DNA of 64,000 bases from Patescibacteria group bacterium (GTDB lineage Bacteria > Patescibacteriota > Patescibacteriia > Magasanikbacterales > GWA2-37-8), in contig JAKLGL010000002.1 of assembly GCA_022710645.1 (NCBI GenBank), positions 14,337 to 78,336 on the forward strand, written 5' to 3'. The translations under genes were made by a program, and so were the position numbers. Of this stretch, positions 4,557 to 61,835 are shown in pieces; positions within the stretch are counted from its first letter, which is position 1; each line of letters opens with the position of its first letter. A model generated the notes under the pieces. That model saw only the letters and a program-made list of their open reading frames with translations. It was not told the origin of the DNA and ran no database searches.

Positions 4557-5342
4557 TTATTGTTTCTTATTGAATCGTTTAAAATAATTATCTATCTCAT
4601 CCCTAAGTTCAATTCCTACTCGTTCAAAACAATCTAGTAAATCTTTATATGTACCCTTACCATCAAGAAAATCCCAAAATTCATCGGCTACTTTAAGCTC
4701 ATTATCTAAATCAAGCATTCCTCGCATTGTCCATCGAGTATAAGGTTCTGGTTCGTAGGGATTATATGGAATTGCGATAAATGTGTTTATGTCAGCTTTT
4801 GGATTATTTGCTAAAATCACAGCAACCCACTCAAGTAATGTTCTTTTAAACTCCTTGAATCCTCCGGCGTTAGGTTTTGCAGTTTTAATATCAAATAAAT
4901 AATAACCTCCGTCTTTTGACTCAAACATCAAATCCACTTTGGTAGGCTTTGCTTTTATCATCTCGCCAGATTGGCAAACTTTTCTTATTCGTTCTATTTC
5001 TTCTTTTTTGTTTGGTGATGTTGTCGCTGTCGTTAATCCGTCAATAATTTTCTGTATTTCTGCTTGTGCGCCAGTGCTTATCCGATCTCCGGCAGTAGCC
5101 TGACATGTAGCCATTTTGAAATTCTTTTGTGCTAGAGCCAAGCCAACTGGTTCAAAAATACTTGTTCCAAAATTAGTATTTAGAGAGTGGATAAATGAAT
5201 AAAGTGCAAGTCTATCTTTACCCAAAAGACGAGTATGGAAAGGCATCGAAGCCGGTTCCGGTTTGTAATTTTGGAATTTATTTCTGAGACTTGCTTTTAG
5301 TACATCCTCAACATTTTTAACTTGTTCTTTTGATAGTGCCAT
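4557..5342 (-). CDS. Type II restriction endonuclease, TdeIII-like family
   Basis: 261 aa. The N-terminal region (MPFHTRLLGKDRLALYSFIHSLNTNFGTSIFEPV) resembles the RE_TdeIII family from memory. Immediately downstream of, and co-oriented with, a DNA methyltransferase. Confidence 0.55.
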   Translation of the reverse strand: MALSKEQVKNVEDVLKASLRNKFQNYKPEPASMPFHTRLLGKDRLALYSFIHSLNTNFGTSIFEPVGLALAQKNFKMATCQATAGDRISTGAQAEIQKIIDGLTTATTSPNKKEEIERIRKVCQSGEMIKAKPTKVDLMFESKDGGYYLFDIKTAKPNAGGFKEFKRTLLEWVAVILANNPKADINTFIAIPYNPYEPEPYTRWTMRGMLDLDNELKVADEFWDFLDGKGTYKDLLDCFERVGIELRDEIDNYFKRFNKKQ

Positions 5343-5346
5343 AAAA

Positions 5347-6921
5347 TTATTTTGATTTAAAATGAAAAATTATTTCGGAATATGGATTCCTATCCCGTTC
5401 TGTTCGATTCAAAACAGGTCTTTTAAATTGATTTACAATCTTCATTCCAGATTTTTCAGCAATTTCTGGATAAAGATTATATTTATCGTTTGCAACAAGG
5501 AAAATATCGTAATTTTCCTTTAAATATTTCTTGCAATTATTTAGAACATCAGCTATTCCCTGAGCATATGATCTGCGAGCCTCCTGTCCTTGCCCTTTAT
5601 AAAGCGGACCGATTTCTAGATCATCCTTTCGTTTAAATCCGAGCAAATCGTAAGCATAAGCGTGTTGCTCGTGATAATCTATTTGTCCAACATAAGGAGG
5701 CGAGCAAAATATACCTGAGATTTTTTGTTTTTTAAGAATCTTTGCAAATTCCGGATTCTGCTTTTCAACTTTTTCAAAAATATCCACAGCTCTTGAATCA
5801 CCAGCAATAGCTGAGTAATGGACTGGTTTTCGCAATCTTTCAAATTCTTTTATTCTTGAAACAGTGTCGTAAGCATAGCGATTAAGCATTGTTTTGATTG
5901 AAAACAACGGCTTGCAAATCTTTTTATGCTTGTAGCAATAATATGTAGTTAATTGTGGTTCTTTTAGGGTAGCAAGATCACTATGTGTTGTAGCTCTGCA
6001 TGACCTAATTGTTCGACTTAAAATTAAAGCCAGAATCTTTTTTGTTTTTAAATCTTTCTCTTGTTTTATGGTATTGAAAACATGATCAATTTCTTTTCTC
6101 ACACTATCCATAAACCAAGTATCCAAAAATGACTCTGCTTTATCCTGTTTCAATTTTATTGAATATTTTTTAAGTAATTTTTGATAGGTAGGCAAAAACT
6201 CTTTTTCTTTCTCTGATGAAAACTTTTTTTCATCAAAATTTCCTTGGTTTATTTTGTATTTAAAATCTGAACCGGGAAAATGCTTGTTATTAAACTTTGC
6301 CAATTCTGCCAACAATTCAGTTTCAAACTCCTGGATTTTATTATCATGTTCAAAAGTATCAATAGCCGAAAGCATTTTCTTTATCGCCTTCTGTAAATAT
6401 TCATGATCGTAATTTGTTGCTTTACAACTTGCAATCATGCAATTAAATTCGGACACATCAATACCAACAGAATGAATACCCATTTCCAATGATTGGATAA
6501 TTGTTGTGCCAGAACCAAGAAAAGGGTCGAGAACTATATCACCATTTTTAAAATAAACTTCTTTTTTAAAATCATCTGTATGGGAATCAATAAAATATTC
6601 AACAAGTTGTGGAATATATTTCCCTTTATATGGATGTAATCGATGAACATGCTTTGTTGTATCTTTTTCTCTAAGATTATCGAAAGATAATGCCCAGTTT
6701 AAATCATCACCGAGTTGCTTCTTCCAATCAATCTCTCGTTTACCTTTCCATGATTCGTAATACTTTTTCAAATCATTCAAATCAATAAGGGTTGACCCAT
6801 TTTCTCCAAGTTTCTTAACCTTTCCATACTGAACAAGGTAAGAAATATTTGTTGGTGATACTTCTTTTTCAAGGTAATCCGTCGCCCATTTTGATGCTTC
6901 GTGTATTGTTACTAATGACAT
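5347..6921 (-). CDS. Type II DNA methyltransferase, amino-MTase (N4-cytosine or N6-adenine). Motif I is DPFLGSGTT and motif IV is SPPY.
   Basis: DPFLGSGTT (AdoMet binding) near residue 133 and FCSPPY near residue 400. The SPPY form favours N4C. Four-nt gap to the REase gene. Confidence 0.85.
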   Translation of the reverse strand: MSLVTIHEASKWATDYLEKEVSPTNISYLVQYGKVKKLGENGSTLIDLNDLKKYYESWKGKREIDWKKQLGDDLNWALSFDNLREKDTTKHVHRLHPYKGKYIPQLVEYFIDSHTDDFKKEVYFKNGDIVLDPFLGSGTTIIQSLEMGIHSVGIDVSEFNCMIASCKATNYDHEYLQKAIKKMLSAIDTFEHDNKIQEFETELLAELAKFNNKHFPGSDFKYKINQGNFDEKKFSSEKEKEFLPTYQKLLKKYSIKLKQDKAESFLDTWFMDSVRKEIDHVFNTIKQEKDLKTKKILALILSRTIRSCRATTHSDLATLKEPQLTTYYCYKHKKICKPLFSIKTMLNRYAYDTVSRIKEFERLRKPVHYSAIAGDSRAVDIFEKVEKQNPEFAKILKKQKISGIFCSPPYVGQIDYHEQHAYAYDLLGFKRKDDLEIGPLYKGQGQEARRSYAQGIADVLNNCKKYLKENYDIFLVANDKYNLYPEIAEKSGMKIVNQFKRPVLNRTERDRNPYSEIIFHFKSK

Positions 6922-6930
6922 AAGTTTATT

Positions 6931-7554
6931 TTAAAATTCTTTTCTTAATACTCCTACGACCTTTCCTTGAATGACAACATTTGATTCGTAAAATGGCTTC
7001 ATTGTTTGGTTTGCCGGAACAAGTTTTATCCTATCCTTTTCTCTGTATATTTTTTTGAGTGTTACTTCGTTTCTATCCGGCATATACGCTACCGCCTTTT
7101 CTCCATCATCTACTGATTGCTGATCTCTCACAACGACGATGTCTCCGTCCGATATTCCTTCTTCAATCATACTCAGACCAGAAACTTTGAGTGCGTAGTA
7201 ATCATGTCCCAGGGAAAGCATACTTCGCGGTACTTCTATTGGTTTTGGGTCGCGGATGGCTTCAATTGGACCACCAGCAGAAATAATTCCCATTAGAGGT
7301 ATCATTACTTCTGGAACCCTGTGGTTGTGCAAAGCGTTGATTGATCGTTTTTTTCCTTTATCCACCAAAAGAAGATTTTTACTTCGCAAAGAATAAACAT
7401 GCTGATGAATTGTTGGCACTGAACGCTTAAAAAACTTGGCTATTTCTACCAGTGAAGGTGAGAAACCATTTTCTTGGCGATATTCCCGTGCAAATTGTAG
7501 GATTTCGGCTTCCCGTTTTGTAGGTTTACCTATTCCAATACTTGACTTCTTCAT
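6931..7554 (-). CDS. lexA: LexA-type repressor (N-terminal winged HTH plus S24 peptidase domain)
   Basis: Ala-Gly autocleavage site in IISAGGPIEA, catalytic Ser in GLSM, Lys in VTLKKI, N-terminal HTH. Confidence 0.8.
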   Translation of the reverse strand: MKKSSIGIGKPTKREAEILQFAREYRQENGFSPSLVEIAKFFKRSVPTIHQHVYSLRSKNLLLVDKGKKRSINALHNHRVPEVMIPLMGIISAGGPIEAIRDPKPIEVPRSMLSLGHDYYALKVSGLSMIEEGISDGDIVVVRDQQSVDDGEKAVAYMPDRNEVTLKKIYREKDRIKLVPANQTMKPFYESNVVIQGKVVGVLRKEF

Positions 7555-7578
7555 ATACCTAGAATTATAATACCTAAA

Positions 7579-7604
7579 GATAACCTAAACAAGAGCGGGT
7601 TATC
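7579..7604. promoter_or_regulatory. Candidate operator: perfect 7-bp inverted repeat GATAACC-N12-GGTTATC in the divergent lexA / 7633-gene intergenic region. A TTATCCACA DnaA-box-like 9-mer overlaps its right arm.
   Basis: Inverted repeat seen directly, centred between divergently transcribed genes. Confidence 0.4.
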
Positions 7605-7632
7605 CACACTATTAATAAATTAACAAAACACT

Positions 7633-8202
7633 ATGGAACAAGACAAAGAAATTTCGGCAATGAATGAAATTATTGCCTCATTAAACAATTTGGATGATGG
7701 ACAAAGACAGAGGGTTATGAAATATGTACTTGAACGATTTGGTGCTACAACCAATTCCCTAACAAACCCCTCAACATTTTCTCCGGTGTCTCAACCCGCT
7801 CCTCAATTCGATGAACTTGGAAGCAGTCAAGCCACAAGAGTAATTGACATCAGAGCTTTTAAAGAAGAAAAATCCCCCCGTTCTGCTATTCAAATGGCGG
7901 TTCTGGTCGCGTTCTATCTCCAAGAACTAGCTCCTTCTGATGAAAGAAAAGCAACTGTAGATTCTGGAGATATAGAAAAATATTTTAAGCAAGCAAGCTA
8001 TAAATTGCCTTCTGGTAAAAATGGAGCTGCAGATACTCTCACAAACGCTAAAAAGGCGGGGTATTTAGAGATAGCTGACCGTGGTACATATAAACTAAAC
8101 CCTGTCGGATATAATCTCATCGCCCACAGTTTGCCCAATGGCGATAGCGAGCTAAGAAAAACCAGGACCAAGGTAAAAAAGGTAAAGAAAGCTAAAAAAT
8201 AG
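7633..8202 (+). CDS. Hypothetical protein, 189 aa. Possible winged-helix-like C-terminal region and a basic lysine-rich tail.
   Basis: ORF with a 2-nt gap to the downstream gene (operon). Ends KTRTKVKKVKKAKK. Confidence 0.6.
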   Translation: MEQDKEISAMNEIIASLNNLDDGQRQRVMKYVLERFGATTNSLTNPSTFSPVSQPAPQFDELGSSQATRVIDIRAFKEEKSPRSAIQMAVLVAFYLQELAPSDERKATVDSGDIEKYFKQASYKLPSGKNGAADTLTNAKKAGYLEIADRGTYKLNPVGYNLIAHSLPNGDSELRKTRTKVKKVKKAKK

Positions 8203-8204
8203 TT

Positions 8205-9017
8205 ATGGATTCTGCTAATGACAACCTAGCAGAAAAACTGAAAGCCACCGAAAAGCTACTAAAAAGAGTTAATTCAATAAAATCTAAGCAGCTCGGTTCG
8301 ACTTCGGTTAAAGATGAGATAAAGGCTTTTGTAAAAGCCTATTTTGAAATTTTACAGTCCGATTTAAAGAATCGAAATATTTCAACAGGTGATCTTGATA
8401 TTGCAATGCAAAATTTAATAACTCTTGCAAATACCAAAGCTCTCACCTCGAAGTACAAAACTCTACTCAAGAAAGTTAAAATGGAATTGGTAATAGTAGA
8501 ATCATCGGGAACATACACTAGTCGTAATAGAGACGCGGGAGTACTAAGTAATGGATATGAACAAGCTATATTGAAAATCCTAAATCAAATCGTTCCTGCT
8601 ATTGGTAATTCATATCAACAAGTTTTGAATGATCTGAATTCTCCAAGAATTTCATATAGAGGCACTGTTGCCGAAATAAGAGAGGTTTTAAGAGAAACTC
8701 TTGATTACCTCGCTCCAGATGAGGATGTCAAAAACATGAAAGATTTTAAACTTGAAAAAGATATGACAAAGCCAACAATGAAACAAAAGGTTCGTTATGT
8801 CTTGAGTAACCGAGGAAAGTCAGAAACTGCTACAAAATCTCCCGAGGATGCTGCTCATATTGTTGATGATGGTGTAGAGAGGTTGGTTAGATCAACTTAT
8901 AATCGTGGGTCGTTATCCACCCACACAACTACTTCTGACAGAGCGGAAGCATGCCAAATAAAAATGTATCTTGATACAGTTCTTTGTGAATTATTAGAGA
9001 TACATAGCAAAAACTAA
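8205..9017 (+). CDS. Hypothetical protein, 270 aa. N-terminal helical/coiled region. A C-terminal R-x5-H (RGSLSTH) may be a HEPN-like motif; this is tentative.
   Basis: ORF only; the motif was noted by eye. Confidence 0.6.
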   Translation: MDSANDNLAEKLKATEKLLKRVNSIKSKQLGSTSVKDEIKAFVKAYFEILQSDLKNRNISTGDLDIAMQNLITLANTKALTSKYKTLLKKVKMELVIVESSGTYTSRNRDAGVLSNGYEQAILKILNQIVPAIGNSYQQVLNDLNSPRISYRGTVAEIREVLRETLDYLAPDEDVKNMKDFKLEKDMTKPTMKQKVRYVLSNRGKSETATKSPEDAAHIVDDGVERLVRSTYNRGSLSTHTTTSDRAEACQIKMYLDTVLCELLEIHSKN

Positions 9018-9231: not shown

Positions 9232-9424
9232 TCTCCGCATATAAAATCACCGTAAGGTGATTTTTTTATACGGGGAGGAGAAAGCAAAAAGTTTTGCTTT
9301 CGTCGGGATGAGAACGCCGGAGCGATATTTTATGAGCTTGTGAGCGAATAAAATCGCGAGGCGGTGGCTAGCCCGAGGAGTTGAAAAACGACGAGAAACG
9401 AAGCCGAATCCCTGCCTCTCCGCA
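9232..9424. repeat. Right copy of the roughly 195 bp direct repeat; ends in an exact copy of the tRNA-Ser 3' end (CGAATCCCTGCCTCTCCGCA)
   Basis: Alignment to 4271-4466. Confidence 0.85.
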
Positions 9425-9513
9425 TAAAAAACCTGCCTATAAAGGCAGATTTTATATTAATCTAAATAAACATTGAAACAGTCTTTTATTTAAAGTATAC
9501 TTAAAAATGCCTT

Positions 9514-22090: not shown

Positions 22091-23830
22091 TTATTTTAAT
22101 CCGGCATCGGTATACCTGTTACTCGCATTCCACATCAACCAACCGGCGTTTGCGTATTTTTCCACTACTTCTATTTGCGCGCGAATTTTTTCCGCATCAT
22201 AAACAGCTCCCATATCAAAAGCCTGGATCCACGGTCGAACTTGCGCTCTTTTACCTTCAAATTTAGGCGCTCCGATTTTCATTCCGTTTTCAAACACAAG
22301 ACCTGGATTTGCCGCAGGATTTATCAAACCCAAATGACCGGATGGGTAATGAGATGGATACATCATAGGACAAACATAGTCCACATTATCAACCGTATCC
22401 GCAATTCTCTGCCCGATAGACATATCATCAACCCCGTTTTTTTCCATTGTAAAACCAAATAAATCCAGAGAAATCCAAACAGGGTCATTTTTAAAATTAT
22501 TGTTTAAAAATCTATAAAACTCTCCCATCACTTCATATTTCTTTTTACTTTCTTCATCATAAAGCGTATCGGCCATATTACCATCAGACGGGAACCTCAC
22601 ATAATCAAAATTTATTTCATCAAAACCGAACTGTATTGCTTCTTTGGCAATCGCCAAATTATATTTCCACACTTCTTTTTTGGTCGGATCAACCCAGCTC
22701 AGACCTTTCTTGTCGCGCCACAATCCTCCACGTTGACTTTTAATAGCCCACTCCGGTTTTTTCTCGGCCAAAACCGGATCTTGAAAAACGGTTTGTCTGG
22801 CAATAACATAAATTTTTTCCGCGTGCAATTTTTCAATCAATTTTTTAACATCACCTAAACGATTATCTTTATTTTTTAACGACACCACCAAAGGAACCTG
22901 GCTATCATACAAAACCAAACCGCTGTAATCTTTGATATCAATCACTACGGCATTGAGCTCGGTTTTTTTGATTAAACTTATCATTTGCTCCATTTTTTTG
23001 GAACTCCCGGCCGAATAAGCGGTTAGATATATTCCTTTTACTTTTATCAAAGGATTTTTTACTCCCGCAAAATGGCGATTTTTTACATTTACCATCAGCA
23101 TGGCGTTATTCATACCTTCAATATACGAAACAGTAGAAGAAGACCAGACTAAAATAAAAAATCCGGAAAAAAAAGAAGCTATCGCCAGCAAACAAAAGTA
23201 AAAATAATCTTTTTTGTTTTCGGAAAGTTTTATCATGGTTTCACCTTGTCTTAATAATTGTATTTTATCAACTTCCACATTAACCAACGTAGTCGGTTTT
23301 CGCAAAGGTAAATCTTGTCCATCAACTAAAATATCGGGTTGTTTTTCTTGGTCGATAAAAGTGTTTGTGATATCTTCAAATTTATAAATTTCACTTTGCC
23401 CTGAAAGATTGGCTGAAGTCGCCACCAAAGGTCCACCGAGTTTAGCTGTAATTTCTCTTAAAAAACCGTTTGCGCTTACTCGCACAGCCAATTTACCCGA
23501 AGAAGAAACCACTCCGTATGGAAAGGCTTGCGGATTTTTACAATATCCTATGATAGTTAAAGGACCGGGCCAATATTTTTTCGCCAAATCGTTTAAATTT
23601 TTATTCCAAACCAAATATTTTTTCGCTTCTTCAATACTATCAACTATCACCAATAACGGCTTACTATAATCTCTTTTTTTTATTTGAAAAATTTTTTCCA
23701 CCGCCTCTTTATTTTTTGCGTCACAACCCAAACCATAGGAAGTTTCGGTCGGAAACACAACCGTTCGCCCAGCTTTTAACTCAACAATAATTTCATCGGT
23801 TTGATTTTTATTAAAAATTTTCACATTCAA
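22091..23830 (-). CDS. Fusion protein: N-terminal YrdC/Sua5 (TsaC) threonylcarbamoyl-AMP synthase domain, a TM helix, and a C-terminal glycoside-hydrolase-like TIM-barrel domain (GHL10/DUF4015-like)
   Basis: TsaC signature VFPTETSYGLGCDA...KPLLVIV at the N-terminus. A hydrophobic segment near residues 205-228. C-terminal FGFDEINFDYVRFP region. Confidence 0.75.
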   Translation of the reverse strand: MNVKIFNKNQTDEIIVELKAGRTVVFPTETSYGLGCDAKNKEAVEKIFQIKKRDYSKPLLVIVDSIEEAKKYLVWNKNLNDLAKKYWPGPLTIIGYCKNPQAFPYGVVSSSGKLAVRVSANGFLREITAKLGGPLVATSANLSGQSEIYKFEDITNTFIDQEKQPDILVDGQDLPLRKPTTLVNVEVDKIQLLRQGETMIKLSENKKDYFYFCLLAIASFFSGFFILVWSSSTVSYIEGMNNAMLMVNVKNRHFAGVKNPLIKVKGIYLTAYSAGSSKKMEQMISLIKKTELNAVVIDIKDYSGLVLYDSQVPLVVSLKNKDNRLGDVKKLIEKLHAEKIYVIARQTVFQDPVLAEKKPEWAIKSQRGGLWRDKKGLSWVDPTKKEVWKYNLAIAKEAIQFGFDEINFDYVRFPSDGNMADTLYDEESKKKYEVMGEFYRFLNNNFKNDPVWISLDLFGFTMEKNGVDDMSIGQRIADTVDNVDYVCPMMYPSHYPSGHLGLINPAANPGLVFENGMKIGAPKFEGKRAQVRPWIQAFDMGAVYDAEKIRAQIEVVEKYANAGWLMWNASNRYTDAGLK

Positions 23831-23873
23831 CTAACTTTATAACCCTGTCTACCGGCAGGCAGGTTTCAACTTT

Positions 23874-24941
23874 TTACTTTTTTATCCACTCCAAATATGC
23901 CCGTGAAAACGGCAACAACTCACCCTCGAGCAAACTTTCCGGGTCGGAAGTTTCAAAATCAGTTCGATGGTCTTTGGCCATATGATATGGATGCAATACA
24001 TAAGAACGTATTTGATTTCCCCACTCAGCACTTTTGTATTCTCCGCGCAATTCGTTTCTTTCTTTGGCCAAACGTTCTTCCTCCAACCGATGTAATTTGG
24101 CTTTGAGAATTTTCATCGCTGTTTCTTTGTTTTGTTGTTGCGAGCGTTCATTTTGACAAGACACGGAAATATTAGTTGGAATATGAACTATTCTAACAGC
24201 GCTATAGGTCGTATTCACACTTTGCCCGCCTTTGCCTCCACTCATAAAAGTATCTATGCGCAAATCTTTAGGGTCTAACTCTATTTTAACTTCTTCATCT
24301 AATTCCGGCATAATTTCTATTAATGCAAAAGAGGTGTGACGCATTTTTTCCGCATCAAAAGGAGAAATACGAACTAACCTATGAACACCGTGCTCGGATT
24401 TCAGATAGCCGTAAGCATAACGGCCTTTGATTTCCAAAGTTACGGATTTATAGCCGGCTTCTTGCCCGCGAGATTCGTCTAAAATCCTAGTTTTCCAACC
24501 CATTTTTTCACTAAAACGCAAAACCATTCGAAGCAACATTTCCGTCCAATCTTGAGCTTCTGTCCCTCCGCTACCGGCGTGCAAAGACACTATGGCGTTA
24601 TTTTTATCATAAGGACCGTTAAGCAATAAATATAGTTCGTATTCGGAAAACTCTTTTTCCAATTCTTCCGTTTGTTTTTCTATCTCTTCTTTCAAAACAG
24701 GGTCATTGGCTTGCGATAAATCCAATAAACCGTTTACTCGATCGGACAAATTTTCCCATTTATCAACTTCCTTTTTAATATCTTGATAATCTTGTGAAAT
24801 AGTTTGAGCGTTTTCAGGATTAGACCAAAAATCCGAAGCGGCCATTTCTTGCGATAATCGCTCCAGTTTATTTTTAAGTTCTTCAATCTTCAACAATTTT
24901 TTTCCTTCTTCAATTTTATTTTTTAATTCTTCTAAATTCAT
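23874..24941 (-). CDS. prfB: Peptide chain release factor 2 (contiguous ORF, no programmed frameshift)
   Basis: GGQ motif, SPF tripeptide (RF2-specific), N-terminal coiled region. Confidence 0.9.
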   Translation of the reverse strand: MNLEELKNKIEEGKKLLKIEELKNKLERLSQEMAASDFWSNPENAQTISQDYQDIKKEVDKWENLSDRVNGLLDLSQANDPVLKEEIEKQTEELEKEFSEYELYLLLNGPYDKNNAIVSLHAGSGGTEAQDWTEMLLRMVLRFSEKMGWKTRILDESRGQEAGYKSVTLEIKGRYAYGYLKSEHGVHRLVRISPFDAEKMRHTSFALIEIMPELDEEVKIELDPKDLRIDTFMSGGKGGQSVNTTYSAVRIVHIPTNISVSCQNERSQQQNKETAMKILKAKLHRLEEERLAKERNELRGEYKSAEWGNQIRSYVLHPYHMAKDHRTDFETSDPESLLEGELLPFSRAYLEWIKK

Positions 24942-24945
24942 AAAA

Positions 24946-25437
24946 TTAAAATATTTTATCCGCGCCAACCGTCACCAAAAGCGTCAAAATACCGGCAATA
25001 ACGATACCGGACAGCACATAAGGCCAAGATTTTTTGAAAGGTATGCCAAATACAAACGCCGCCAAAGCGCCAGTATAAGCTCCGGTTCCCAGGATCGGAA
25101 TTCCTATAAAAATCATCAAGCCTATCAGACCGTATTTTTGGTAATCATGAGCGAATTTTTCCTGAGCACGGTTCAAAGTGTTTACCCATTTGGAAGCCAA
25201 AAAACCTGATTTCTTGGAAATCCAAGCATGAAATTTGTCAGCCAATATTAAGATCAAAAGCACCGGTATAAAATTACCAATAATAGAAATCAACAACACT
25301 TCTACAGGGCGTAAATGATAAGCAAAAACTCCAACCGGTATGGATAAACGTAATTCTCCAAACGGTATCATGGACATAAAAAATGTCGCGATTTCCGGAG
25401 GAAATGAAGCAAAAAAATGAATGAGTTCTTTAAACAT
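24946..25437 (-). CDS. Small polytopic membrane protein (COG2426/small-multidrug-export-like)
   Basis: Four TM helices; weak family resemblance. Confidence 0.55.
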   Translation of the reverse strand: MFKELIHFFASFPPEIATFFMSMIPFGELRLSIPVGVFAYHLRPVEVLLISIIGNFIPVLLILILADKFHAWISKKSGFLASKWVNTLNRAQEKFAHDYQKYGLIGLMIFIGIPILGTGAYTGALAAFVFGIPFKKSWPYVLSGIVIAGILTLLVTVGADKIF

Positions 25438-26770: not shown

Positions 26771-26806
26771 ACTAACTTTATTAACCTGCCTGTCGGTAGG
26801 CAAGCT

Positions 26807-27727
26807 TTATAAACTTTCAACTCGTTGTCGCCACTTTTCATAATATTCTTTTCTCTTGTCATTTTCATGAAACTTCAACATATTATCGTTTATAACTACA
26901 CCGGGAAAATTGAAATTTTTATCGCGGGTAGACATTTTTATTCTAGCCAATTGAGCTTCTTTGGCTTGTTTTTCCATCAAATCTCCATAAACGCCTTGCC
27001 ACATTTTTTCTAAAACATTTTTTATAAATAATTTAAATCGTCCGTTCTTTATTTCTTTGGCATAGATAGATAGTTCAGAAGAAAATTGAGGTAAATAATC
27101 AAACAGCCAGTCGTTATCGGCGATTATTTTCCGACGATAATCTTCAGGGTCGTAAATCGGAATCAACACAGCTAACCAATAAATCAAATAAACGTCTTCT
27201 TGAATAATTTTTATATTTTGTAAATTTAGAGAATCTTTGGAGATAAAGAACGACAAACAAACTCCGTTTTTGTTTTTATTAACTCTTTGACCAAACAACA
27301 ACAGAATAAGATTGGAAAAAAATCTTGCCAACCACAATCTTTTCGGATCGGTTATGATAAAAAAATCAATGTCGCTTTTTTGAGTTGCCGTGCCAAACGC
27401 CAAAGAATTACAGATAAATACAGTTTTAATAAAAGGTAGCCAACTTATTTTTTTACAAGCTCTTGCCGCTTTTTTTAACTTATTTTCATTTTCCAGAAGT
27501 CTCTGTCTACGAAATTCAACATTGTTTGACTTGTTCGGCAAAAAAAAGTACCCGTCTTGAAGAAAAATTTTTTGTTCTTTGAGTAAACCCTCTATAGTTA
27601 CTTCAAAATCGCACCGGGTCGTTTTTTGTTTCCATAAAAATTCAAACAACTCTTCTCTGGTCAAAGGATAAGAAAAAAGTTCGAAGAAAGACAATGTTTT
27701 TAAGATGGCATTTTTTATTTCATCCAT
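26807..27727 (-). CDS. Hypothetical protein with a minimal nucleotidyltransferase-like motif
   Basis: GTATQKSDIDFFI resembles the Pol-beta NTase GS...D.D core. Confidence 0.5.
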   Translation of the reverse strand: MDEIKNAILKTLSFFELFSYPLTREELFEFLWKQKTTRCDFEVTIEGLLKEQKIFLQDGYFFLPNKSNNVEFRRQRLLENENKLKKAARACKKISWLPFIKTVFICNSLAFGTATQKSDIDFFIITDPKRLWLARFFSNLILLLFGQRVNKNKNGVCLSFFISKDSLNLQNIKIIQEDVYLIYWLAVLIPIYDPEDYRRKIIADNDWLFDYLPQFSSELSIYAKEIKNGRFKLFIKNVLEKMWQGVYGDLMEKQAKEAQLARIKMSTRDKNFNFPGVVINDNMLKFHENDKRKEYYEKWRQRVESL

Positions 27728-38488: not shown

Positions 38489-41400
38489 TTATGGGGTTGG
38501 TTCTTCAGCTGGTGGAGTCTCTTCTTCAGCTGGTGGTGTTGGTTCTTCAACTGGTGGTGTTGGTTCTTCAACTGGTGGGGTTGTGGTGACTATTTCTTCA
38601 GTAGTAGATGGTGTCTCAACCATCCCTTCTTCCCCTCCTTGTAAAGGAGGGGTCATCACCTCACCCTCGCCTCCTTCTTGAGGAGGGGCTGGGGGTGGTG
38701 TTACTACAAACTTTCTCTTTGCAATTACCATCCAATCAAAAGTAGAAGAAGATATACCACCATTTAATTCTTTAACCACAAAACCTGTGGCTAATTTTTC
38801 TTTGACATATATGCCACCACATTCACCTGTCAGAGTAATATTAACTTTGAGCGGCTGAGTTTCGTCAATGAGTTCGCAAGTATCAGTATCAAAATTGATA
38901 ATTGCTTCGCCATTTATGAGTTCTGATGAACTAGAAAATACAAATTCCGAATATGGTGATTGCATAGCAAACATTTCTTTGGTGTTACCATCGCTGGTTT
39001 GGATCCTGGTGATAAATTGACCATTTTCATCAATCGCCCATTTATTATCAACACCTGTAATATTTTTTACATTTAACAGTGCATAATTTTGTAAATCTAG
39101 ATCTCCGCCAGAATAAGTTAGACTTCCACCAGATTGTTGAACACTTAAAGTTGTAGAAACCGCTTCGCGTAAAGCCTCAATTTCCGCTTGTTGAACCTTG
39201 GCTACTTCTATTAAAAATGCCGTTAATTTTGGATAATCAACTGATTTATAGGTAGTACTTACATCAGTATAAACAAGTTCAGGTAAAACTAATTCTAATT
39301 CTTGAGCCACAACACCAATCTGTCTTCTATCATCATTTGTAGGATAAGTAGAAGTGTTCCAATAATAATATATTCCCCTTAAATTAGTTAAAGCTTCTAA
39401 AACATTTTTTTCAGCATTGATAGAAATAATTTCTTTTTTAAAACGAACATCTGATTGTGTACACGACCCAAAACTACTATATAATATGCCTGAATTATCA
39501 ACACAAACTTCATGAGTTCCGTTTCCACTTAAGTTAGTTATTTGAGCTGAGCCATTTATATAAACACCTAATTGACCAGACGCACCCGCATCGACAACTA
39601 ATCTCCAATTGGAAACATTTACAGCTCCGATACCTACTCTGGTAGCTGAGGTACCCGAACCACGGACATGCAAAGCCGGATTACTTGTTTGTCCAGAACC
39701 ACTAAAACCTATTCCTAAACTACTACTTATACTATTTGTATAATATTGACCCAAAGAAAATCCATAATTTATATTATTACTAACTTTTGCATTGTCGCCA
39801 ATTGCATAAGAAGATGTATTGTTCATTCCGATTGTTGCACCAGCTCCAAGAGCATAAGAAAAAACAGATCCTTCATCTACTATAGATTGCCAACCCAAGG
39901 CATAACTTGAACCACCTCTGCTCTTTGCTCCTTTTCCTATAGCAACTGCATGATTAACAAAATTGGGAAAACCTAACACAGTATAATAACCAGCCCAAGC
40001 CTCTTCACCAAAAGCAAATGAAGTAACACCCCCAGCTATTGCTTTATAACCAAAAGCGAAAGAATTATTACTTACTACATTACCAAATAAACCTCCACTT
40101 AAAATCTGGCTTTCTTCACCGCCGGCAAAAGAATAATATGCTAAATTTGTAGTTGTAACATTTTTACCAAAAGCTATTGAGTAGGCTCCACCAGCGTAAC
40201 TTCCTGTGCCAAGAGCAAAAGAACTTGTACCCATAGCAGTATTATTATTACCTATAGAAAAACTGCCTTGTTTTCCAAGAGCCGCAGAACCATAACCCAT
40301 TGCTATACTGCCATCATTATTAATACTAAAAACATTTATACCAGTTGAAGAAGCAAAACTAACTATAGATGAATTTCCATTTTCTGTATCTCCTACCACT
40401 CTAAAAGTTGAATTTAGACTATTCTGGCTACCCACAGCAAAAGAACCTCTTATATAAGAATTATTTGTACCTGGATGACCGACCAAAGAAACTCCAATAT
40501 TGTTTGTCGTGTCATATAGTTCTAACACACCCCACCATTTATTTCCAATATCTTGATTCATAACAAGAGCACCGCCAACACTAGATGTATTGCCAGTTAA
40601 AAGAATGCCGTCATAACTATTCATAGTATGGACATGTAATTTGGTCCAGGCAGTTGTCGTCCCAATCCCCACATTTCCATTATTATCAATTGTCATTTTT
40701 TCCGTTAAACTCCCTTCATTATTAGTATAAAAAGCTAAACGACCGGTGGAAGAGCTGGAACCATTCAAAAGACCGGCAATACTAGCAACTGTACTAGAAC
40801 TATTAGAACTAATATTTCCATAAGGATCGACACTAGAATTTATTATGGAAATAAAATCAATACCTGGTCCCATACCATCGGCAGAGCTGACGTTTCTTCT
40901 AGCCGAAACTTTAAGAGCCGTATATTTAGAATTACCGCTTGCACTTCTTTCAAAAATCGGAGCTTTATCATAAGACGTGGCTACAGTATGCAAAATTCCA
41001 CTTGGACTAGTTGTGCCAATACCAATATTTCCACCATCTTCAATGAATAAACGTGTAACTCCGTGTGTTCTAAAACCAATAGGTAAATAGCTACCCAATA
41101 CAGCATCGTTTGCAATATAATGAGCAAAACCTGTATAACCACTTGAAGATACGTTAGAAGAAATTGATAAAACTCCCGTACTACTAACAATGTCAATTGA
41201 ACCGCCTTCAACGTGTAATTTTGCCAAAGGTGTAGAAGTTCCGATACCCACCCTTCCGTTTTCTAATATATTTAAATTATTTGATCCTTCTCCGTTCGCT
41301 TGAGTATAAAAACCCAATCTTGTTCCGTTTTGTTTTATAGACCAAGTACTTGTGCCGATATTTAAATTATCCACCCAAAGAGCATTCCATCTAGTCGTAG

Positions 41401-47259: not shown

Positions 47260-47848
47260 ACGAATAACTTATATATCAATATAATGATAGTTATTAATAG
47301 AAAGCTATTTTTAGATATCAATTAATAAATAGCATTTTATAACTATCAATATATAGAATTATAATATCATAAAAATCGATTTTTCTGAAAATAAGAGGTG
47401 TGGATAACTATAAGTTTATAAAGTTTACCCCGTTAAATCCCCGTAGGGGTCTGCCTTTGGCAGAATTTAACAGGGGTAAATAAAGTCTATAAAGTCCGTA
47501 AAGTCCCAAAAATATCAACTAAACGACCGAAATGATCGGTAGAATTTTCAATTTTTAATTTTACAATTTTTAATGAATTTTCAATTTACATTAATTTGTC
47601 ATTCCCGCCTACGAGCGGGAATCCAGTGGTTTTTTTTATATTTCCTGGATCCCTGCTGCAGTTTATCCGCCTATGGCTGGCAGGGATGACACTGCAATCC
47701 CCCATCGGGGATCCCTCTTTTTTTACTATGATTATATTGATATCAATATAAAGATATATACCAAACAACAAAAAATCCCGTTTTCACGGGACTTTATGGA
47801 CCTTATAAACTTTATGGACCTGCCTACCGGCAGGCAGGCTTTACAGAC
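47260..47848. other. Complex structured intergenic region. It contains AT-rich ATCAATAT-type palindromes, one DnaA-box 9-mer (TGTGGATAA), inverted arrays of the 9-bp ACTTTATRG repeat (47481-47507 and 47789-47819) bracketing a roughly 280 bp segment with AATTTTCAATTT iterons, two strong hairpin terminators, and a copy of the CCTGCCTACCGGCAGGCAGG palindrome at 47827-47846.
   Basis: All elements read directly from the sequence. Confidence 0.6.
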
Positions 47849-48169
47849 TTAAATATTTTTATCAATCATTCCTTGTAATTTTTCTTTTTGCACTCCTCCG
47901 GTAACGGTTTCTACCGGTTGGCCGCCTTTAAAAACAATAAAAGTCGGAATACTCATGACATTATATTGACTGGCCACATCACTGTTTTCATCAACATTAC
48001 ATTTAACTATTTTGATATCCTTATCTTTGTTATCTTCTATCAATTCTCCCAAAACTCCGAGCATCATTTGGCAGGGTCCGCACCACGGAGCCCAAAAATC
48101 CACTAATACAGGAATATTTGAGTCTAAAACTTCCTCCTTAAAATTAGTTGAGCTTACATTATTTTCCAT
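47849..48169 (-). CDS. trxA: Thioredoxin
   Basis: WAPWCGPCQ active site. Confidence 0.9.
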   Translation of the reverse strand: MENNVSSTNFKEEVLDSNIPVLVDFWAPWCGPCQMMLGVLGELIEDNKDKDIKIVKCNVDENSDVASQYNVMSIPTFIVFKGGQPVETVTGGVQKEKLQGMIDKNI

Positions 48170-48176
48170 AAACAAA

Positions 48177-50825: not shown

Positions 50826-51593
50826 ATGAAAATAATCACTAAAAATAATTTTGAACTCAAACCAAATACTTTTGTGTTGGTTGATAAGCCGGTAAACTGG
50901 ACTAGTTTTGATGTGGTTGGTTATTTACGAAAACTATTTCGCCAACAATATCCGGATTTAAAAAAAGTCAAAGTTGGTCATGCGGGCACACTTGATCCTT
51001 TTGCTACCGGACTTTTGATTGTTGCTTTGGGACGCGAAGCTACGCGAGAAATTGAAAATTTCAAAAACTTAAATAAAACTTACGAAGCGACTATCAAACT
51101 TGGGGAAATATCTAACACGGGAGATAATACAGGTAATATTCAACCTTACAAATTAAGTGGCTTAAACAAAATAATCTTCAATCTAAAAACCTGCCTGCCG
51201 GCAGGCAGATCTAAAATCTTAAATAAAACTGGACAGACACCCGCCAAAACTGAAGTAGAAAAAGTACTTGCTAAATTTATTGGCCCTCAAAAACAAACTC
51301 CTCCAATGTTTTCCGCCAAAAAAGTCAATGGTCAGAGACTTTACGATTTAGCACGCAAAGGTAAAGAAATAAAAAGAAAAGCAAACAAAATTGAAATTTT
51401 TCATATAAACATTTTAGACTATCAATATCCATTTCTAACAATCAAAGTTATCTGCTCCCCCGGCACCTATATCCGCACCTTAGCCGAAGATATCGGAAAA
51501 AAACTCAAAATCGGAGCATACTGCCAAGAACTGAAACGTACCGACATAGGACATTACAAATTGAATGATGCCATAGAATTACCTTTGAAATAA
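50826..51593 (+). CDS. truB: tRNA pseudouridine(55) synthase TruB, with a roughly 25 aa insertion relative to the canonical TruB spacing that coincides with an embedded palindromic repeat
   Basis: GHAGTLDP catalytic-Asp motif; the length and order of motifs match TruB. Confidence 0.9.
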   Translation: MKIITKNNFELKPNTFVLVDKPVNWTSFDVVGYLRKLFRQQYPDLKKVKVGHAGTLDPFATGLLIVALGREATREIENFKNLNKTYEATIKLGEISNTGDNTGNIQPYKLSGLNKIIFNLKTCLPAGRSKILNKTGQTPAKTEVEKVLAKFIGPQKQTPPMFSAKKVNGQRLYDLARKGKEIKRKANKIEIFHINILDYQYPFLTIKVICSPGTYIRTLAEDIGKKLKIGAYCQELKRTDIGHYKLNDAIELPLK

Positions 51594-61638: not shown

Positions 61639-61712
61639 GTCAGGGTAGCTCAGTTGGTGAGAGCGAAGGATTCATAACCCTTAGGTCGGGAGTTCGACTC
61701 TCCCCCCTGACA
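61639..61712 (+). tRNA. tRNA with anticodon CAU (elongator Met or lysidine-Ile2), no encoded CCA
   Basis: Acceptor GTCAGGG/CCCTGAC, D-arm TAGCTCAGTTGGTGAGAGC, anticodon loop TTCATAA, T-loop GGGAGTTCGACTCTCCC. G1-C72 is paired, so it is not an initiator. Confidence 0.8.
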
Positions 61713-61835
61713 CTTCTGTCCACCCCGTCGCCCCGGTCTCGGACACCTGCGGTTTCCGACGGTCGCTAGCGCTCCCTGCCTTCCACCATCGGGGTGTCCA
61801 GCCGTCCGCCTACGGCGTCCGTATTTTGTAAACTG
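61713..61835 (+). other. GC-rich (about 65-70%) highly self-complementary element between tRNA-CAU and the tsaD start, in an otherwise roughly 35% GC locus
   Basis: Base composition and complementary segments (GGACACC/GGTGTCC, CCCCG/CGGGG, CCGACGG/CCGTC) read directly. Confidence 0.5.

What the first reader, a model, noticed from the sequence alone, without database searches (positions are those of the whole stretch)
51181..51216. Dispersed near-perfect palindrome CCTGCCTRCCGGYAGGCAGG at four sites, one embedded in-frame inside truB and flanked by an 8-bp direct repeat
Copies lie at 23846-23866, 26784-26804, 47827-47846 and 51190-51208. The three intergenic copies are each flanked by CTTTAT-like words. 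The truB copy is a perfect 18-bp palindrome (CTGCCTGCCGGCAGGCAG) flanked by ATCTAAAA direct repeats and falls in a region where this TruB is about 25 aa longer than the canonical spacing between the TGD.G and F.G..Q.PP motifs. This resembles a REP/MITE-like miniature element that can land in coding sequence and be tolerated.
Basis: seen in the sequence. Interest (0 to 1): 0.6.

Follow-up and report, generated by a model that had tools for sequence, protein, structure and literature searches.

The report
Mobile 20-bp palindrome linked to GIY-YIG nuclease
The four sites are solo copies of a 20-base palindrome that gets inserted into genomes (here even in-frame into truB), occurs unchanged in many bacterial phyla and phages, and elsewhere sits almost invariably beside a tiny GIY-YIG nuclease gene inside a broken tRNA-Leu copy, which points to an undescribed hairpin-plus-nuclease mobile system.

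Summary
Four copies of CCTGCCTRCCGGYAGGCAGG ("PAL") lie in this 64-kb Magasanikbacteria (CPR) window, against 0 expected by chance.

Relatives supply clean empty sites:
- an exact 20-nt indel with no target duplication in the prfB–sua5 spacer;
- a 21-nt (7-codon) indel in truB.

The "ATCTAAAA direct repeat" already exists in the empty truB alleles, so it is not a target-site duplication. PAL accounts for only 7 of the ~26 extra TruB residues. Those residues fall in the only low-confidence loop of the AlphaFold model.

It inserts into its own loop, into ORFs and into tRNA fragments.

New finding: PAL is tightly linked to a subfamily of ~80-aa stand-alone GIY-YIG (UPF0213/Slx1-like) nucleases. 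Of 80 loci chosen only by homology to that protein, 73 carry PAL. It sits at stem–loop junctions of a disrupted tRNA-Leu copy, next to an intact tRNA-Leu.

Best reading: PAL is a non-autonomous hairpin element. That the structure-specific nuclease moves it is inferred, not shown. No description of this was found in the searchable literature.

The parts
23844..23863 (.). PAL copy 1 (CCTGTCTACCGGCAGGCAGG), in the 43-nt spacer between prfB (RF2, 23874-24968, -) and the Sua5/YrdC-domain gene (22091-23830, -).
   Evidence: The relative L130 has the same spacer without it: AAAGTTGAAA|GTTATAAAGTTAG against AAAGTTGAAA[20 nt]GTTATAAAGTTAG. This is an exact 20-nt indel with no duplication.
26785..26804 (.). 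PAL copy 2 (CCTGCCTGTCGGTAGGCAAG). It lies 2 nt after the stop of the 306-aa gene (26807-27727, -) and about 14 nt before the ATG of the Wzy_C-type gene.
   Evidence: The syntenic spacer in L129 is 15 nt long and has no PAL.
47819..47838 (.). PAL copy 3 (CCTGCCTACCGGCAGGCAGG), in the 3' UTR of thioredoxin (47849-48175, -), between the stop codon and the terminator-like hairpin at 47795-47772.
   Evidence: It is absent from the syntenic spacers of L121 and L123, which carry other GC-rich hairpins instead.
51189..51209 (.). A 21-nt insertion in truB: A plus PAL copy 4 (CCTGCCTGCCGGCAGGCAGA). It encodes T122-C-L-P-A-G-R128.
   Evidence: Empty alleles are in L121 and L127; a decayed copy is in L123.
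50826..51593 (+). truB ORF (255 aa, TruB_N + TruB_C_2), host of PAL copy 4.
   Evidence: AlphaFold mean pLDDT is 87.6, and the only stretch below 50 is residues 123-135.
51144..51245 (+). Clade-specific variable segment of TruB (residues 107-140), built largely of 7-nt repeat units (ATCTWMA). It is an indel hot spot that in relatives carries other palindromic modules.
51181..51188 (+). Left ATCTAAAA word. It is part of a tandem repeat that already exists in PAL-free alleles, so it is not a TSD.
51209..51216 (+). Right ATCTAAAA word. Its first A is the mutated last base of PAL, which is G in L123.
47772..47795 (-). Terminator-like hairpin with a T-run downstream of PAL copy 3. This hairpin, not PAL, is the likely thioredoxin terminator.

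Best explanation
The four sites are solo copies of a 20-bp GC-rich palindromic DNA element (PAL; perfect form CCTGCCTGCCGGCAGGCAGG; an 8-bp stem with a CCGG loop when single-stranded).

SHOWN
- PAL is gained or lost as an exact 20-nt unit with no target-site duplication. Inside ORFs the unit is 21 nt (PAL plus one base), the only size class that keeps the frame.
- It has no stop codon in any of the six frames.
- It prefers a purine at -1 and G/T at +1.
- It lands mostly in permissive DNA: spacers, 3' UTRs, junk tandem repeats, loops of other hairpins including its own loop, pseudo-tRNA fragments, and surface loops of proteins.
- Copies decay by point mutation after insertion.
- The identical 20-mer is present in many phyla and in viral contigs.
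- Its recurrent 'home' is a module with this layout: a disrupted tRNA copy (nearly always tRNA-Leu) carrying PAL at a stem-loop junction of the D, anticodon or T arm, then an ~80-aa stand-alone GIY-YIG (UPF0213/Slx1-like) nuclease gene, then an intact copy of the same tRNA.

INFERRED
- The small structure-specific nuclease recognises hairpin or stem-loop DNA. It cuts at single-strand/double-strand junctions, and PAL hairpins are excised and re-ligated (or copied during repair) at such nicks.
- It acts preferentially in cis, which would explain the pile-up of PALs in the adjacent tRNA fragment, and occasionally in trans, which would give solo copies such as the four here.
- Phages carrying the module, and the universal conservation of tRNA-Leu, would explain the cross-phylum spread.

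In this window PAL has no evident host function. In truB it adds 7 residues to a disordered surface loop.
For: Reality and non-randomness: 4 copies against 0 in shuffles.

Insertion anatomy:
- exact 20-nt indel in the prfB-sua5 spacer;
- 21-nt indel in truB, with empty alleles that share identical flanks;
- exact 20-nt insertions in duplicated tRNA fragments when compared with the intact copy in the same locus;
- the in-frame copies in ribosomal protein S6 (LPAGRQG) and in a membrane protein need 21 nt;
- 11 perfect tandem 21-nt units in L177.

Decay: P0002 carries CCTGCCTGCCGACAAGCAGG and P0009 carries CCTGCCTGCCAATAGGCAAGG at the same truB site.

They come from many phyla including cultured isolates. 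A further 48 stretches are in viral contigs.

Target preference: -1 is G or A in 56/58 oriented copies and +1 is G or T in 53/58. PAL lies outside long ORFs 47% of the time against a 10.6% background. It is nested in its own loop in at least 5 of 175 sites.

Tolerance in TruB: the only stretch with pLDDT below 50 is residues 123-135. The insertion lies in a segment absent from Thermotoga TruB.

Nuclease link:
- 9 of 10 GIY-YIG ORFs in PAL-ascertained loci lie within 150 nt of a PAL;
- all loci fetched through three GIY-YIG proteins have PAL in the D-loop of an upstream tRNA-Leu fragment;
- 73 of 80 metagenome loci chosen only by GIY-YIG homology carry PAL, and most of the rest carry nested or shortened PAL variants or other palindromes at the same positions;
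- 52 of the 53 downstream tRNAs are tRNA-Leu;
- PAL positions cluster at cloverleaf stem-loop junctions;
- PAL density is 0.8 per kb in these loci against 3 hits in 120 kb of control loci.

Protein identity: Pfam GIY-YIG. The closest solved structures are the UPF0213 proteins 1zg2 and 1ywl, followed by the SLX1 structure-specific endonuclease.
Against: - No GIY-YIG (or Y1 transposase) homologue lies in the 64-kb window or in about 120 kb of relatives' loci. The link to this genome is therefore indirect.
- One PAL-rich 29.5-kb viral contig (L159/L168/L170) has at least 6 PALs and no GIY-YIG ORF.
- Solo PAL sites show only a modest excess of hairpin-loop targets (10.8% against 5.9%, p = 0.02). 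The truB and prfB sites are not hairpins.
- The 80 loci are the hits closest to a query built from PAL-linked proteins, so the association is shown for that subfamily and not for all UPF0213 proteins.
- An 80-aa hydrolytic nuclease has no known strand-transfer activity. No biochemical data exist, and how the 20-mer is copied is unexplained.
- In a few modules other palindromes occupy the same tRNA positions (L054, L224). This fits 'any hairpin will do' as well as it fits a PAL-specific enzyme.
- The polarity of the truB event (gain or precise loss) is unresolved, because the TruB tree is star-like and mosaic.
Confidence: 0.55

Rival explanations
1. PAL is an inert passenger of a tRNA-Leu-targeting free-standing homing endonuclease gene. 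A hairpin in the leftover tRNA fragment breaks the endonuclease's own recognition site, or breaks the direct repeat that would otherwise delete the gene, and it is co-converted with the gene during homing. Solo copies arise through host processes such as template switching at hairpins, short-homology gene conversion between repeat-filled spacers, or filler DNA at breaks. They are not made by the nuclease.
For: - The module layout (tRNA fragment, ORF, regenerated intact tRNA) is what insertion of a homing-type gene with target regeneration would leave.
- Other palindromes can occupy the same positions (L054, L224).
- The PAL flanks in the window share ATAAAG-type repeat words that could support ectopic conversion.
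- Flanks are enriched in tandem repeats: 8.6% against 3.0% for intergenic controls.
Against: - The intact downstream tRNA keeps the same D-arm sequence, so disrupting only the fragment gives no immunity.
- Several PALs accumulate in a single fragment, always at structural junctions.
- Insertions are exact 20-mers into sites that share no homology with other PAL flanks, for example truB, S6 and hsdS.
- The sequence stays identical across phyla although the flanks are unrelated.
Confidence: 0.22
2. PAL is a REP-type element mobilised by an IS200/IS605-like Y1 (RAYT) transposase acting on single-stranded hairpins.
For: - Its anatomy fits: a 20-bp palindrome, no target duplication, mostly extragenic, sometimes inside genes including truB, as reported for REPs and RPEs (Di Nocera 2013, PMC3733652).
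- A Y1_Tnp ORF (Pfam E = 1e-23) lies within 8 kb of PAL in 3 of 120 loci, and PAL is 26 nt upstream of it in L047.
Against: - Only 1 of 3 Y1 ORFs is adjacent to PAL, and none is flanked by PAL on both sides.
- There is no terminal GTAG/CGTC tag; GTAG occurs only inside one arm, in a subset of copies.
- There is no conserved target tetranucleotide.
- REP sequences are lineage-specific, whereas PAL is identical across phyla.
- No Y1 homologue lies in the window or in relatives' loci.
- The GIY-YIG association is far stronger.
Confidence: 0.08
3. PAL is a host cis-regulatory or structural site, such as a terminator, an RNA-stability hairpin, or an operator for a conserved dimeric DNA-binding protein, and it is maintained by selection for that function.
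For: - It is a perfect dyad, conserved across phyla in the way parS is.
- Three of the four window copies sit just downstream of stop codons.
- It forms a stable hairpin.
Against: - No T-run follows it, and the scan calls a different hairpin as the thioredoxin terminator.
- Copies sit in tight intra-operon spacers directly before start codons.
- Close relatives lack the copies at the same sites.
- Copies decay.
- It also occurs inside ORFs, inside pseudo-tRNAs, nested in itself, and as tandem arrays.
- It matches no Rfam family.
Confidence: 0.05
4. PAL is an artefact: an adapter or linker, or a chimeric assembly junction.
For: A perfect palindrome seen in MAGs from many different studies could suggest a technical origin.
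Against: - Orthologous copies in independent samples have diverged by point mutation at the same truB site and keep the frame.
- It is present in genomes of cultured isolates (Winogradskyella, Olivibacter, Flagellimonas).
- Its placement inside tRNA fragments next to one gene family is position-specific.
Confidence: 0.01

Closest known systems
REP / REPIN elements with RAYT (TnpA-REP) genes
   Same: Both are short GC-rich extragenic palindromes dispersed as non-autonomous copies. Both have a 'home' copy beside a single-copy nuclease-type gene. Both are occasionally inserted inside genes; truB is a documented host of REPs in Stenotrophomonas, Erythrobacter and Sphingopyxis (PMC3733652). Neither makes a target-site duplication.
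   Different: PAL has no terminal GTAG/CGTC tag. The partner gene is a GIY-YIG (UPF0213/Slx1-like) hydrolytic nuclease, not a Y1 HUH transposase. The sequence is identical across phyla rather than lineage-specific. The home copy lies inside a disrupted tRNA-Leu gene.
Rickettsia palindromic elements (RPE; Ogata et al. 2000, from my own knowledge; RPE-1 in R. conorii truB is cited in PMC3733652)
   Same: Both are selfish palindromic DNA inserted in-frame into essential genes, truB among them, and tolerated in surface-exposed segments.
   Different: RPEs are about 100-150 bp and restricted to Rickettsia. No associated enzyme is known for them. PAL is 20 bp, crosses phyla, and is linked to a nuclease gene.
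Organellar GC clusters and palindromic repeats (yeast mitochondrial GC clusters and Neurospora PstI palindromes, from my own knowledge; Volvox, Lobosphaera and Fusarium palindromic repeats appear in the list)
   Same: Both are small GC-rich palindromes that invade AT-rich compact genomes. Both land in spacers and sometimes in ORFs, nest into one another, and have an unknown mobilising enzyme.
   Different: Those elements are organellar and lineage-restricted. They show no conserved gene association and no tRNA-Leu/GIY-YIG module.
IS200/IS605-family elements and their gene-less derivatives (PATEs)
   Same: Both are single-strand hairpin-based. Both insert without target duplication and can be excised precisely.
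   Different: IS200/IS605 elements need two different subterminal hairpins plus guide sequences, and they insert 3' of a fixed tetra- or pentanucleotide. PAL is a single 20-nt hairpin with only an R|K preference.
Free-standing GIY-YIG homing endonuclease genes (T4 Seg proteins and I-TevI relatives; PMC2988022 appears in the list)
   Same: Both involve a GIY-YIG gene inserted next to or into a highly conserved target gene, with that gene's function preserved. Both are carried by phages and occur across wide phyletic ranges.
   Different: The protein here is the bare ~80-aa catalytic domain of the Slx1/UPF0213 branch, with no DNA-binding domain (PMC1564403). The module always carries a conserved palindrome inside a duplicated tRNA fragment. 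That palindrome also exists as hundreds of solo copies.

Membership tests
REP (GTAG/CGTC-tagged repetitive extragenic palindromes, REP/RAYT systems) | A 20-40-bp imperfect palindrome, repeated and mainly extragenic. | tested here: met
   PAL is a 20-bp palindrome with 4 copies in 64 kb, 3 of them extragenic. Across loci it lies outside long ORFs 47% of the time against a 10.6% background.
REP (GTAG/CGTC-tagged repetitive extragenic palindromes, REP/RAYT systems) | A conserved GTAG or CGTC tetranucleotide at one terminus of the repeat (PMC3733652). | tested here: not met
   The termini are CCTG...CAGG. GTAG occurs only internally (positions 12-15) and in about one third of copies.
REP (GTAG/CGTC-tagged repetitive extragenic palindromes, REP/RAYT systems) | Association with a RAYT (Y1 transposase) gene flanked by the repeats. 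| tested here: not met
   Y1_Tnp ORFs occur in 3 of 120 loci. Only one is adjacent to PAL, and none is flanked on both sides. None is in the window.
REP (GTAG/CGTC-tagged repetitive extragenic palindromes, REP/RAYT systems) | A repeat sequence specific to a species or genus. | tested here: not met
   The identical 20-mer is found in Bacteroidota, Patescibacteria, Omnitrophota, Planctomycetota, Nitrospirota, Chloroflexota, proteobacterial MAGs and viral contigs.
MITE | A 70-300-bp element with 15-30-bp terminal inverted repeats. | tested here: not met
   The whole unit is 20 bp. The flanks beyond it are not conserved.
MITE | A target-site duplication of fixed length. | tested here: not met
   The indels are exact 20-nt units without duplication. 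The ATCTAAAA repeat already exists in the empty truB alleles.
IS200/IS605-derived hairpin elements | Insertion 3' of a fixed tetra- or pentanucleotide target, with no TSD. | tested here: not met
   The absence of a TSD is met. However, only positions -1 (R) and +1 (K) are biased, and there is no conserved tetranucleotide.
Rho-independent terminator | A GC-rich stem-loop followed directly by a T-run on the transcribed strand. | tested here: not met
   No T-run follows PAL on the gene strand. The scan does not call PAL and calls the neighbouring hairpin at 47795-47772 instead.
tRNA intron (the idea that PAL in tRNA genes is spliced out) | The interrupted tRNA is the functional copy, so the insert must be removed from the RNA. 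| tested here: not met
   Most PAL-bearing tRNA sequences examined are partial or duplicated copies lying next to an intact copy of the same tRNA. No intact neighbouring copy was established for the phage tRNA-Met of L163.
GIY-YIG / tRNA-Leu / PAL module (defined here) | A stand-alone ~80-aa GIY-YIG ORF within about 150 nt of PAL. | tested here: not met
   This is met in the related loci. It is not met in the window: no GIY-YIG homologue lies in the 64 kb, so the window copies are solo copies.
GIY-YIG / tRNA-Leu / PAL module (defined here) | The same palindrome sequence as in the modules. | tested here: met
   The window copies differ from the module consensus CCTGCCTGCCGGCAGGCAGG at 1-3 positions, and the variants (A8, T13, T5) also occur in modules.
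GIY-YIG / tRNA-Leu / PAL module (defined here) | The genome that carries solo PALs also encodes the nuclease. | not testable with these tools

The most novel reading that the evidence does not exclude
PAL together with the ~80-aa UPF0213/Slx1-like GIY-YIG protein forms a previously unrecognised kind of prokaryotic mobile system. In this reading a structure-specific hydrolytic nuclease, rather than a transposase, excises and re-inserts (or seeds copying of) a bare 20-nt DNA hairpin at stem-loop junctions. The system lives inside a duplicated tRNA-Leu gene, is carried between phyla by phages, and has scattered solo hairpins through thousands of genomes, including into essential genes such as truB and rpsF. 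A bolder variant, which the evidence does not exclude, is that the transcript of the tRNA-fragment-plus-PAL serves as an RNA partner (handle plus guide) for the domain-only nuclease.
Probability: 0.35. Interest if true: 0.9.

Novelty: new variant of a known kind. Interest (0 to 1): 0.75.

Why it matters
Short palindromic repeats such as REPs, RPEs and organellar GC clusters are common, but for most of them the mobilising machinery is unknown.

Here a single 20-bp hairpin is:
- identical across very distant phyla;
- caught in clean presence/absence states with no target duplication;
- tied to one small gene family whose function has been open since the structural-genomics era (UPF0213/YhbQ-like, the prokaryotic Slx1 branch).

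This gives a directly testable hypothesis for what these minimal GIY-YIG proteins do and for how a bare hairpin can move.

It also bears on annotation. PAL and its relatives create spurious 'LPAGRQ/CLPAGR' peptides, inflate ORFs, break tRNA predictions, and mark duplicated tRNA-Leu fragments.

For the window itself the practical message is modest. The truB insertion is a tolerated 7-residue addition to a disordered loop, and the three intergenic copies have no evident regulatory role.

Tried and rejected
- Target-site duplication. Rejected: the empty truB alleles keep both ATCTAAAA words, and the prfB spacer and tRNA cases show exact 20-nt indels.
- PAL as a spliced tRNA insert or new intron. 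Rejected: ARAGORN finds the intact tRNA next door, and the PAL-bearing copies are fragments.
- General targeting of hairpin loops. Only a weak excess was found (10.8% against 5.9%). It is kept only for tRNA fragments and for self-nesting.
- Flanking tandem repeats as a cause. They are about 3-fold enriched over intergenic controls, but they also exist at empty sites (L130, L121). They probably mark permissive junk DNA.
- Extension of the palindrome into the flanks or longer TIR-bearing variants. None was found.
- Neighbour-gene clustering around PAL. Only common families and 3 Y1 transposases turned up.
- TruB phylogeny to polarise gain against loss. The tree is star-like and mosaic, so this stayed unresolved.
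- Rfam. Only tRNAs, plus one group I intron in L174.
- Protein-pattern scan of viral contigs. It returned only the two loci already known.
- tblastn of the nuclease against INPHARED phages and PLSDB plasmids. No hit at 1e-6.
- NCBIfam and PADLOC. There is no curated family or defence assignment.
- Literature. Eight searches, including the exact 20-mer, PAL-type peptides, and GIY-YIG with tRNA-Leu, found no description.
- Type IIS site numerology (ACCTGC) and DNA-uptake-sequence ideas. Considered and dropped because the clean 20-nt indels do not fit them.
Full report
**1. The observation**

The window is from a Candidatus Magasanikbacteria (CPR/Patescibacteria) genome. It has about 36% G+C and a compact gene arrangement.

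The pattern CCTGCCTRCCGGYAGGCAGG, here called PAL, matches at 23844-23863, 26785-26804, 47819-47838 and 51190-51209 with 0-2 mismatches. One hundred dinucleotide-preserving shuffles gave no match even at 3 mismatches. The window holds no further copy at up to 5 mismatches.

The perfect form folds as an 8-bp stem with a CCGG loop, at -8 kcal/mol as DNA. It contains no stop codon in any frame on either strand, which can be read directly from the sequence.

**2. PAL is an inserted unit: empty sites**

*truB.* Thirty related TruB proteins were aligned.
- Ours reads NLKT-CLPAGR-SKILNK.
- P0002 (76% identity) reads NLKT-CLPTSR-SKILNK.
- P0003, P0004/5 and P0007 (75-78% identity) read NLKS-KILNK.

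At the DNA level:
- window: AATCTAAAA[ACCTGCCTGCCGGCAGGCAGA]TCTAAAATC
- L123: AATCTAAAA[ACCTGCCTGCCGACAAGCAGG]TCAAAAATC
- L121: AATCTAAAATCTAAAATC
- L127: AATCTAAAATCAAAAATC

The difference is therefore exactly 21 nt, PAL plus one A. The ATCTAAAA 'direct repeat' is present in the empty alleles as part of a 7-nt tandem repeat. A TSD model (8 + 20 = 28 nt) would also break the frame.

*prfB to sua5 spacer, minus strand.*
- window: AAAGTTGAAA[CCTGCCTGCCGGTAGACAGG]GTTATAAAGTTAG
- L130: AAAGTTGAAAGTTATAAAGTTAG

This is an exact 20-nt indel with no duplication. L131 has only a 3-nt spacer at this position. The spacer itself is a heptamer array, (AAAGTWG)n.

*Thioredoxin 3' UTR.* The copy at 47819 is absent from L121 and L123, which carry other GC-rich hairpins there. 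PAL is not the terminator. A separate hairpin with a T-run follows it at 47795-47772.

**3. What PAL does to TruB**

Compared with Thermotoga TruB (1r3e), residues 107-140 replace 8 residues. PAL supplies only residues 122-128.

The rest of the segment is a clade-specific variable region that PAL-free orthologues also have. In other relatives this region carries other palindromic modules:
- an AT-rich module, KYWILNLFS..NIQY;
- a GC-rich module, PDHWIPAFAGMT;
- in P0009, a decayed PAL (LPANRQG) next to the AT-rich module.

The AlphaFold model is confident overall (mean pLDDT 87.6). Its single stretch below 50 is residues 123-135, which covers the PAL peptide and the residues that follow it. 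The insertion therefore sits in a disordered surface loop.

The TruB tree is star-like and the insertion states are intermixed. Whether the PAL-free alleles are ancestral or precise losses remains open.

REPs and RPE-1 inside truB of other bacteria are already on record (PMC3733652).

**4. PAL outside this window**

My own arithmetic gives roughly 2 chance matches for such a 20-mer in 596 Gb. The hits come from:
- Bacteroidota, including cultured Winogradskyella, Olivibacter and Flagellimonas;
- many CPR lineages;
- Omnitrophota and Planctomycetota;
- Bdellovibrionales, and uncultured gamma- and delta-proteobacterial MAGs;
- Nitrospirota, Chloroflexota and Ignavibacteria.

The viral collection gave 48 further stretches. 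The flanks are unrelated between copies.

Features across about 175 non-redundant sites:
- A base preference at the junctions. In 58 copies that can be oriented by the GGTAGG variant, -1 is G or A in 56 and +1 is G or T in 53.
- An excess outside long ORFs, 47% against 10.6%.
- In-frame copies in real genes. In-frame copies in ribosomal protein S6 (L068) and a membrane protein (L060) both read LPAGRQG and need 21 nt to stay in frame.
- Self-nesting in PAL's own loop, C|CGG or CCG|G (L020, L026, L059, L065 and others).
- Insertion into the loop of a terminator (L111).
- A perfect 11-copy tandem array of a 21-nt unit (L177).
- Only a weak general preference for hairpin loops, 10.8% against 5.9%, p = 0.02.

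**5. tRNA cases**

PAL first appeared to interrupt tRNA genes in L021, L044, L052 and L093. In L044, L052 and L093 the interrupted sequence is a duplicated 5' fragment lying just upstream of an intact copy of the same tRNA.

Comparing each fragment with its intact copy gives further exact 20-nt insertions without duplication. This removes any need for splicing.

**6. The unexpected link to a nuclease**

In L052 and L093 a small GIY-YIG ORF lies between the tRNA fragment and the intact tRNA. Three tests followed.

*Profile search of all ORFs in the PAL-ascertained loci.* It found 10 such ORFs, and 9 of them lie within 150 nt of a PAL.

*Reverse test with single proteins.* A protein search with these ORFs found more than 6,900 clusters, mostly named 'GIY-YIG nuclease family protein' or 'putative endonuclease', from Bacteroidota, Patescibacteria, Omnitrophota and Ignavibacteria. 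Loci were fetched through three of these proteins. All of them show the same layout:
- GCCCGGGTGGCGGAA[PAL]TTGGTAGACGCACTGGACT ... ORF ... intact tRNA-Leu(CAA)
- GCCCGGATGGCGAA[PAL]ATTGGTAAAC ... ORF ... intact tRNA-Leu(CAG)

*Reverse test at scale.* A metagenome scan with the protein alignment returned 80 loci chosen only by protein homology.
- 73 of them contain PAL at up to 4 edits.
- Most of the others carry nested or shortened PAL variants. L224, like L054, carries other palindromes at the same positions. Only L215 has nothing.
- 52 of the 53 tRNAs just downstream are tRNA-Leu.
- Within the disrupted tRNA copy PAL sits at a few positions:
  - 23 at the 3' end of the D-loop (GGTAGA|CGC);
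  - 17 inside the D-loop (GGCGRAA|yTGG);
  - 4 at the 5' end of the anticodon loop (ACGA|CTCAAAA);
  - 9 at the T-stem/T-loop junction (GAG|TTCGAAT).
- Several fragments carry two or three PALs.
- Control loci hold 3 PAL-like hits in 120 kb, against 0.8 per kb in these loci.

*Caveat.* The 80 loci are the hits closest to a query built from PAL-linked proteins. The association is therefore shown for this subfamily only.

*What the protein is.* It is the bare GIY-YIG domain (Pfam PF01541). Its closest solved relatives are the UPF0213 proteins 1zg2 and 1ywl, followed by the eukaryotic SLX1 structure-specific endonuclease. This is the 'minimal' prokaryotic Slx1 branch, whose function is unknown (PMC1564403). 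It has no curated NCBIfam family and no PADLOC assignment.

**7. Interpretation**

Shown:
- PAL is a discrete, inserted, decaying DNA unit found across phyla.
- Its recurrent genomic home is the module of tRNA-Leu fragment, PAL, GIY-YIG ORF and intact tRNA-Leu.

Inferred, at about 0.35-0.45:
- The structure-specific nuclease acts on hairpin or stem-loop DNA and is responsible for placing PAL at single-strand/double-strand junctions.
- It does so preferentially in cis. This would explain both the pile-up next to its own gene and the junction positions.
- It acts occasionally in trans, giving solo copies such as the four in this window.
- Selection then keeps only the copies that fall in permissive places.
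- Phage-borne modules (L149, L174) and the universality of tRNA-Leu would explain the spread.

The main rival, at about 0.2, is that PAL merely rides with a tRNA-Leu-targeting homing-type gene and that solo copies come from host recombination or slippage.

A REP/RAYT reading is weak. Y1 transposases occur in 3 of 120 loci with only one adjacent to PAL, there is no terminal GTAG tag, and the sequence is not lineage-specific. Terminator or operator readings and an artefact are unlikely.

Against the favoured mechanism:
- no GIY-YIG gene lies in the window or in relatives' loci;
- one PAL-rich viral contig lacks it;
- no chemistry is known by which an 80-aa hydrolase would copy a hairpin.

**8. 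Novelty and verdict**

The general kind is known: small palindromic selfish repeats, sometimes inside genes, sometimes with an associated enzyme gene. Three points appear to be new:
- the identity of the 20-mer across phyla;
- the clean insertion anatomy without a TSD;
- the near-obligate association with a UPF0213/Slx1-like GIY-YIG gene inside a duplicated tRNA-Leu.

Eight full-text searches, including the exact sequence, found no description. That library does not cover the subscription literature.

For the window itself the feature is a set of four solo, apparently neutral copies. The wider system they reveal is the interesting part.

Noticed in passing
window 4278-4470 and 9261-9430: A repeat of about 170 nt (TTTTTTATACGGGGAGGAGAAAGC...GAATCCCTGCCTCTCCGC) occurs twice, about 5 kb apart. 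Each copy ends with a copy of the 3' end of tRNA-Ser(GCT) (4184-4277). This looks like att-type repeats bracketing an integrated element of about 5 kb that holds the ORFs at 4557-9017.
   Followed up: partly
window 61716-61822: A GC-rich, hairpin-rich stretch of about 110 nt lies directly after tRNA-Met (61639-61713). It has no Rfam match and its nature is unknown.
   Followed up: no
window 47260-47848: The noncoding region of about 590 bp downstream of thioredoxin is packed with other GC-rich hairpins: 47439-47455; 47603-47620 (GTCATTCCCGC..GCGGGAATCC, the 'IPA.AGM/RFRGND' peptide type); and 47699-47715. Relatives carry different hairpins at the same place.
   Followed up: partly
window 38659-38701: Another GC-rich palindrome-like element (CCTCACCCTCGCCTCCTTCTTGAGGAGGGGCTGGGGGTGG) lies in-frame in the C-terminal tail of the 1531-aa ORF, encoding TPPPAPPQEGGEGEV. 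Similar sequences flank PAL in L098, L157 and L158.
   Followed up: partly
window 23831-23873; L130 6072-6114; L129 6075-6239: Intergenic spacers that are 3 nt long in one relative (L131) have grown elsewhere into 7-9-nt tandem arrays, (AAAGTWG)n and (TCCATAAAG)n. PAL and other hairpins sit inside these arrays.
   Followed up: partly
TruB relatives P0006-P0018, P0051; L125, L126, L128: The same TruB loop carries other palindromic modules in relatives: an AT-rich one (KYWILNLFS..NIQY), a GC-rich one (PDHWIPAFAGMT), and nested combinations in P0051. P0015-P0017 have a second insert near the N-terminus, LTEKMRLGKVHPVKSGEAGLP.
   Followed up: partly
L174 1182-1416: The tRNA copy downstream of the GIY-YIG ORF in this viral contig contains a group I intron (Rfam RF00028, E = 7.5e-21). 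One locus thus combines a tRNA fragment with PAL, a GIY-YIG gene, and an intron-bearing tRNA.
   Followed up: no
L177 3911-4142: Eleven perfect tandem copies of a 21-nt PAL unit (CCATGCCTACCGGCAGGCAGG) run to the end of the fetched locus. On one strand they read (MACLPVG)n. Several in-frame PAL copies lie in neighbouring ORFs.
   Followed up: partly
L089 2751-4892: PAL plus a GIY-YIG domain are inserted, without stop codons, into the middle of a type I restriction specificity (HsdS-like) ORF.
   Followed up: no
L021 4020-4225: A complete tRNA-Met gene lies between the 5' part (which carries PAL in the D-arm) and the 3' part of another tRNA-like gene whose acceptor halves, GTCAGGG...CCCTGAC, match each other.
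   Followed up: no
L163 2284-2303 (viral contig): PAL sits between the anticodon arm and the T-arm (the variable-loop position) of an otherwise complete phage tRNA-Met. There it would mimic a long variable arm. L134 has the same insertion with an adjacent deletion.
   Followed up: no
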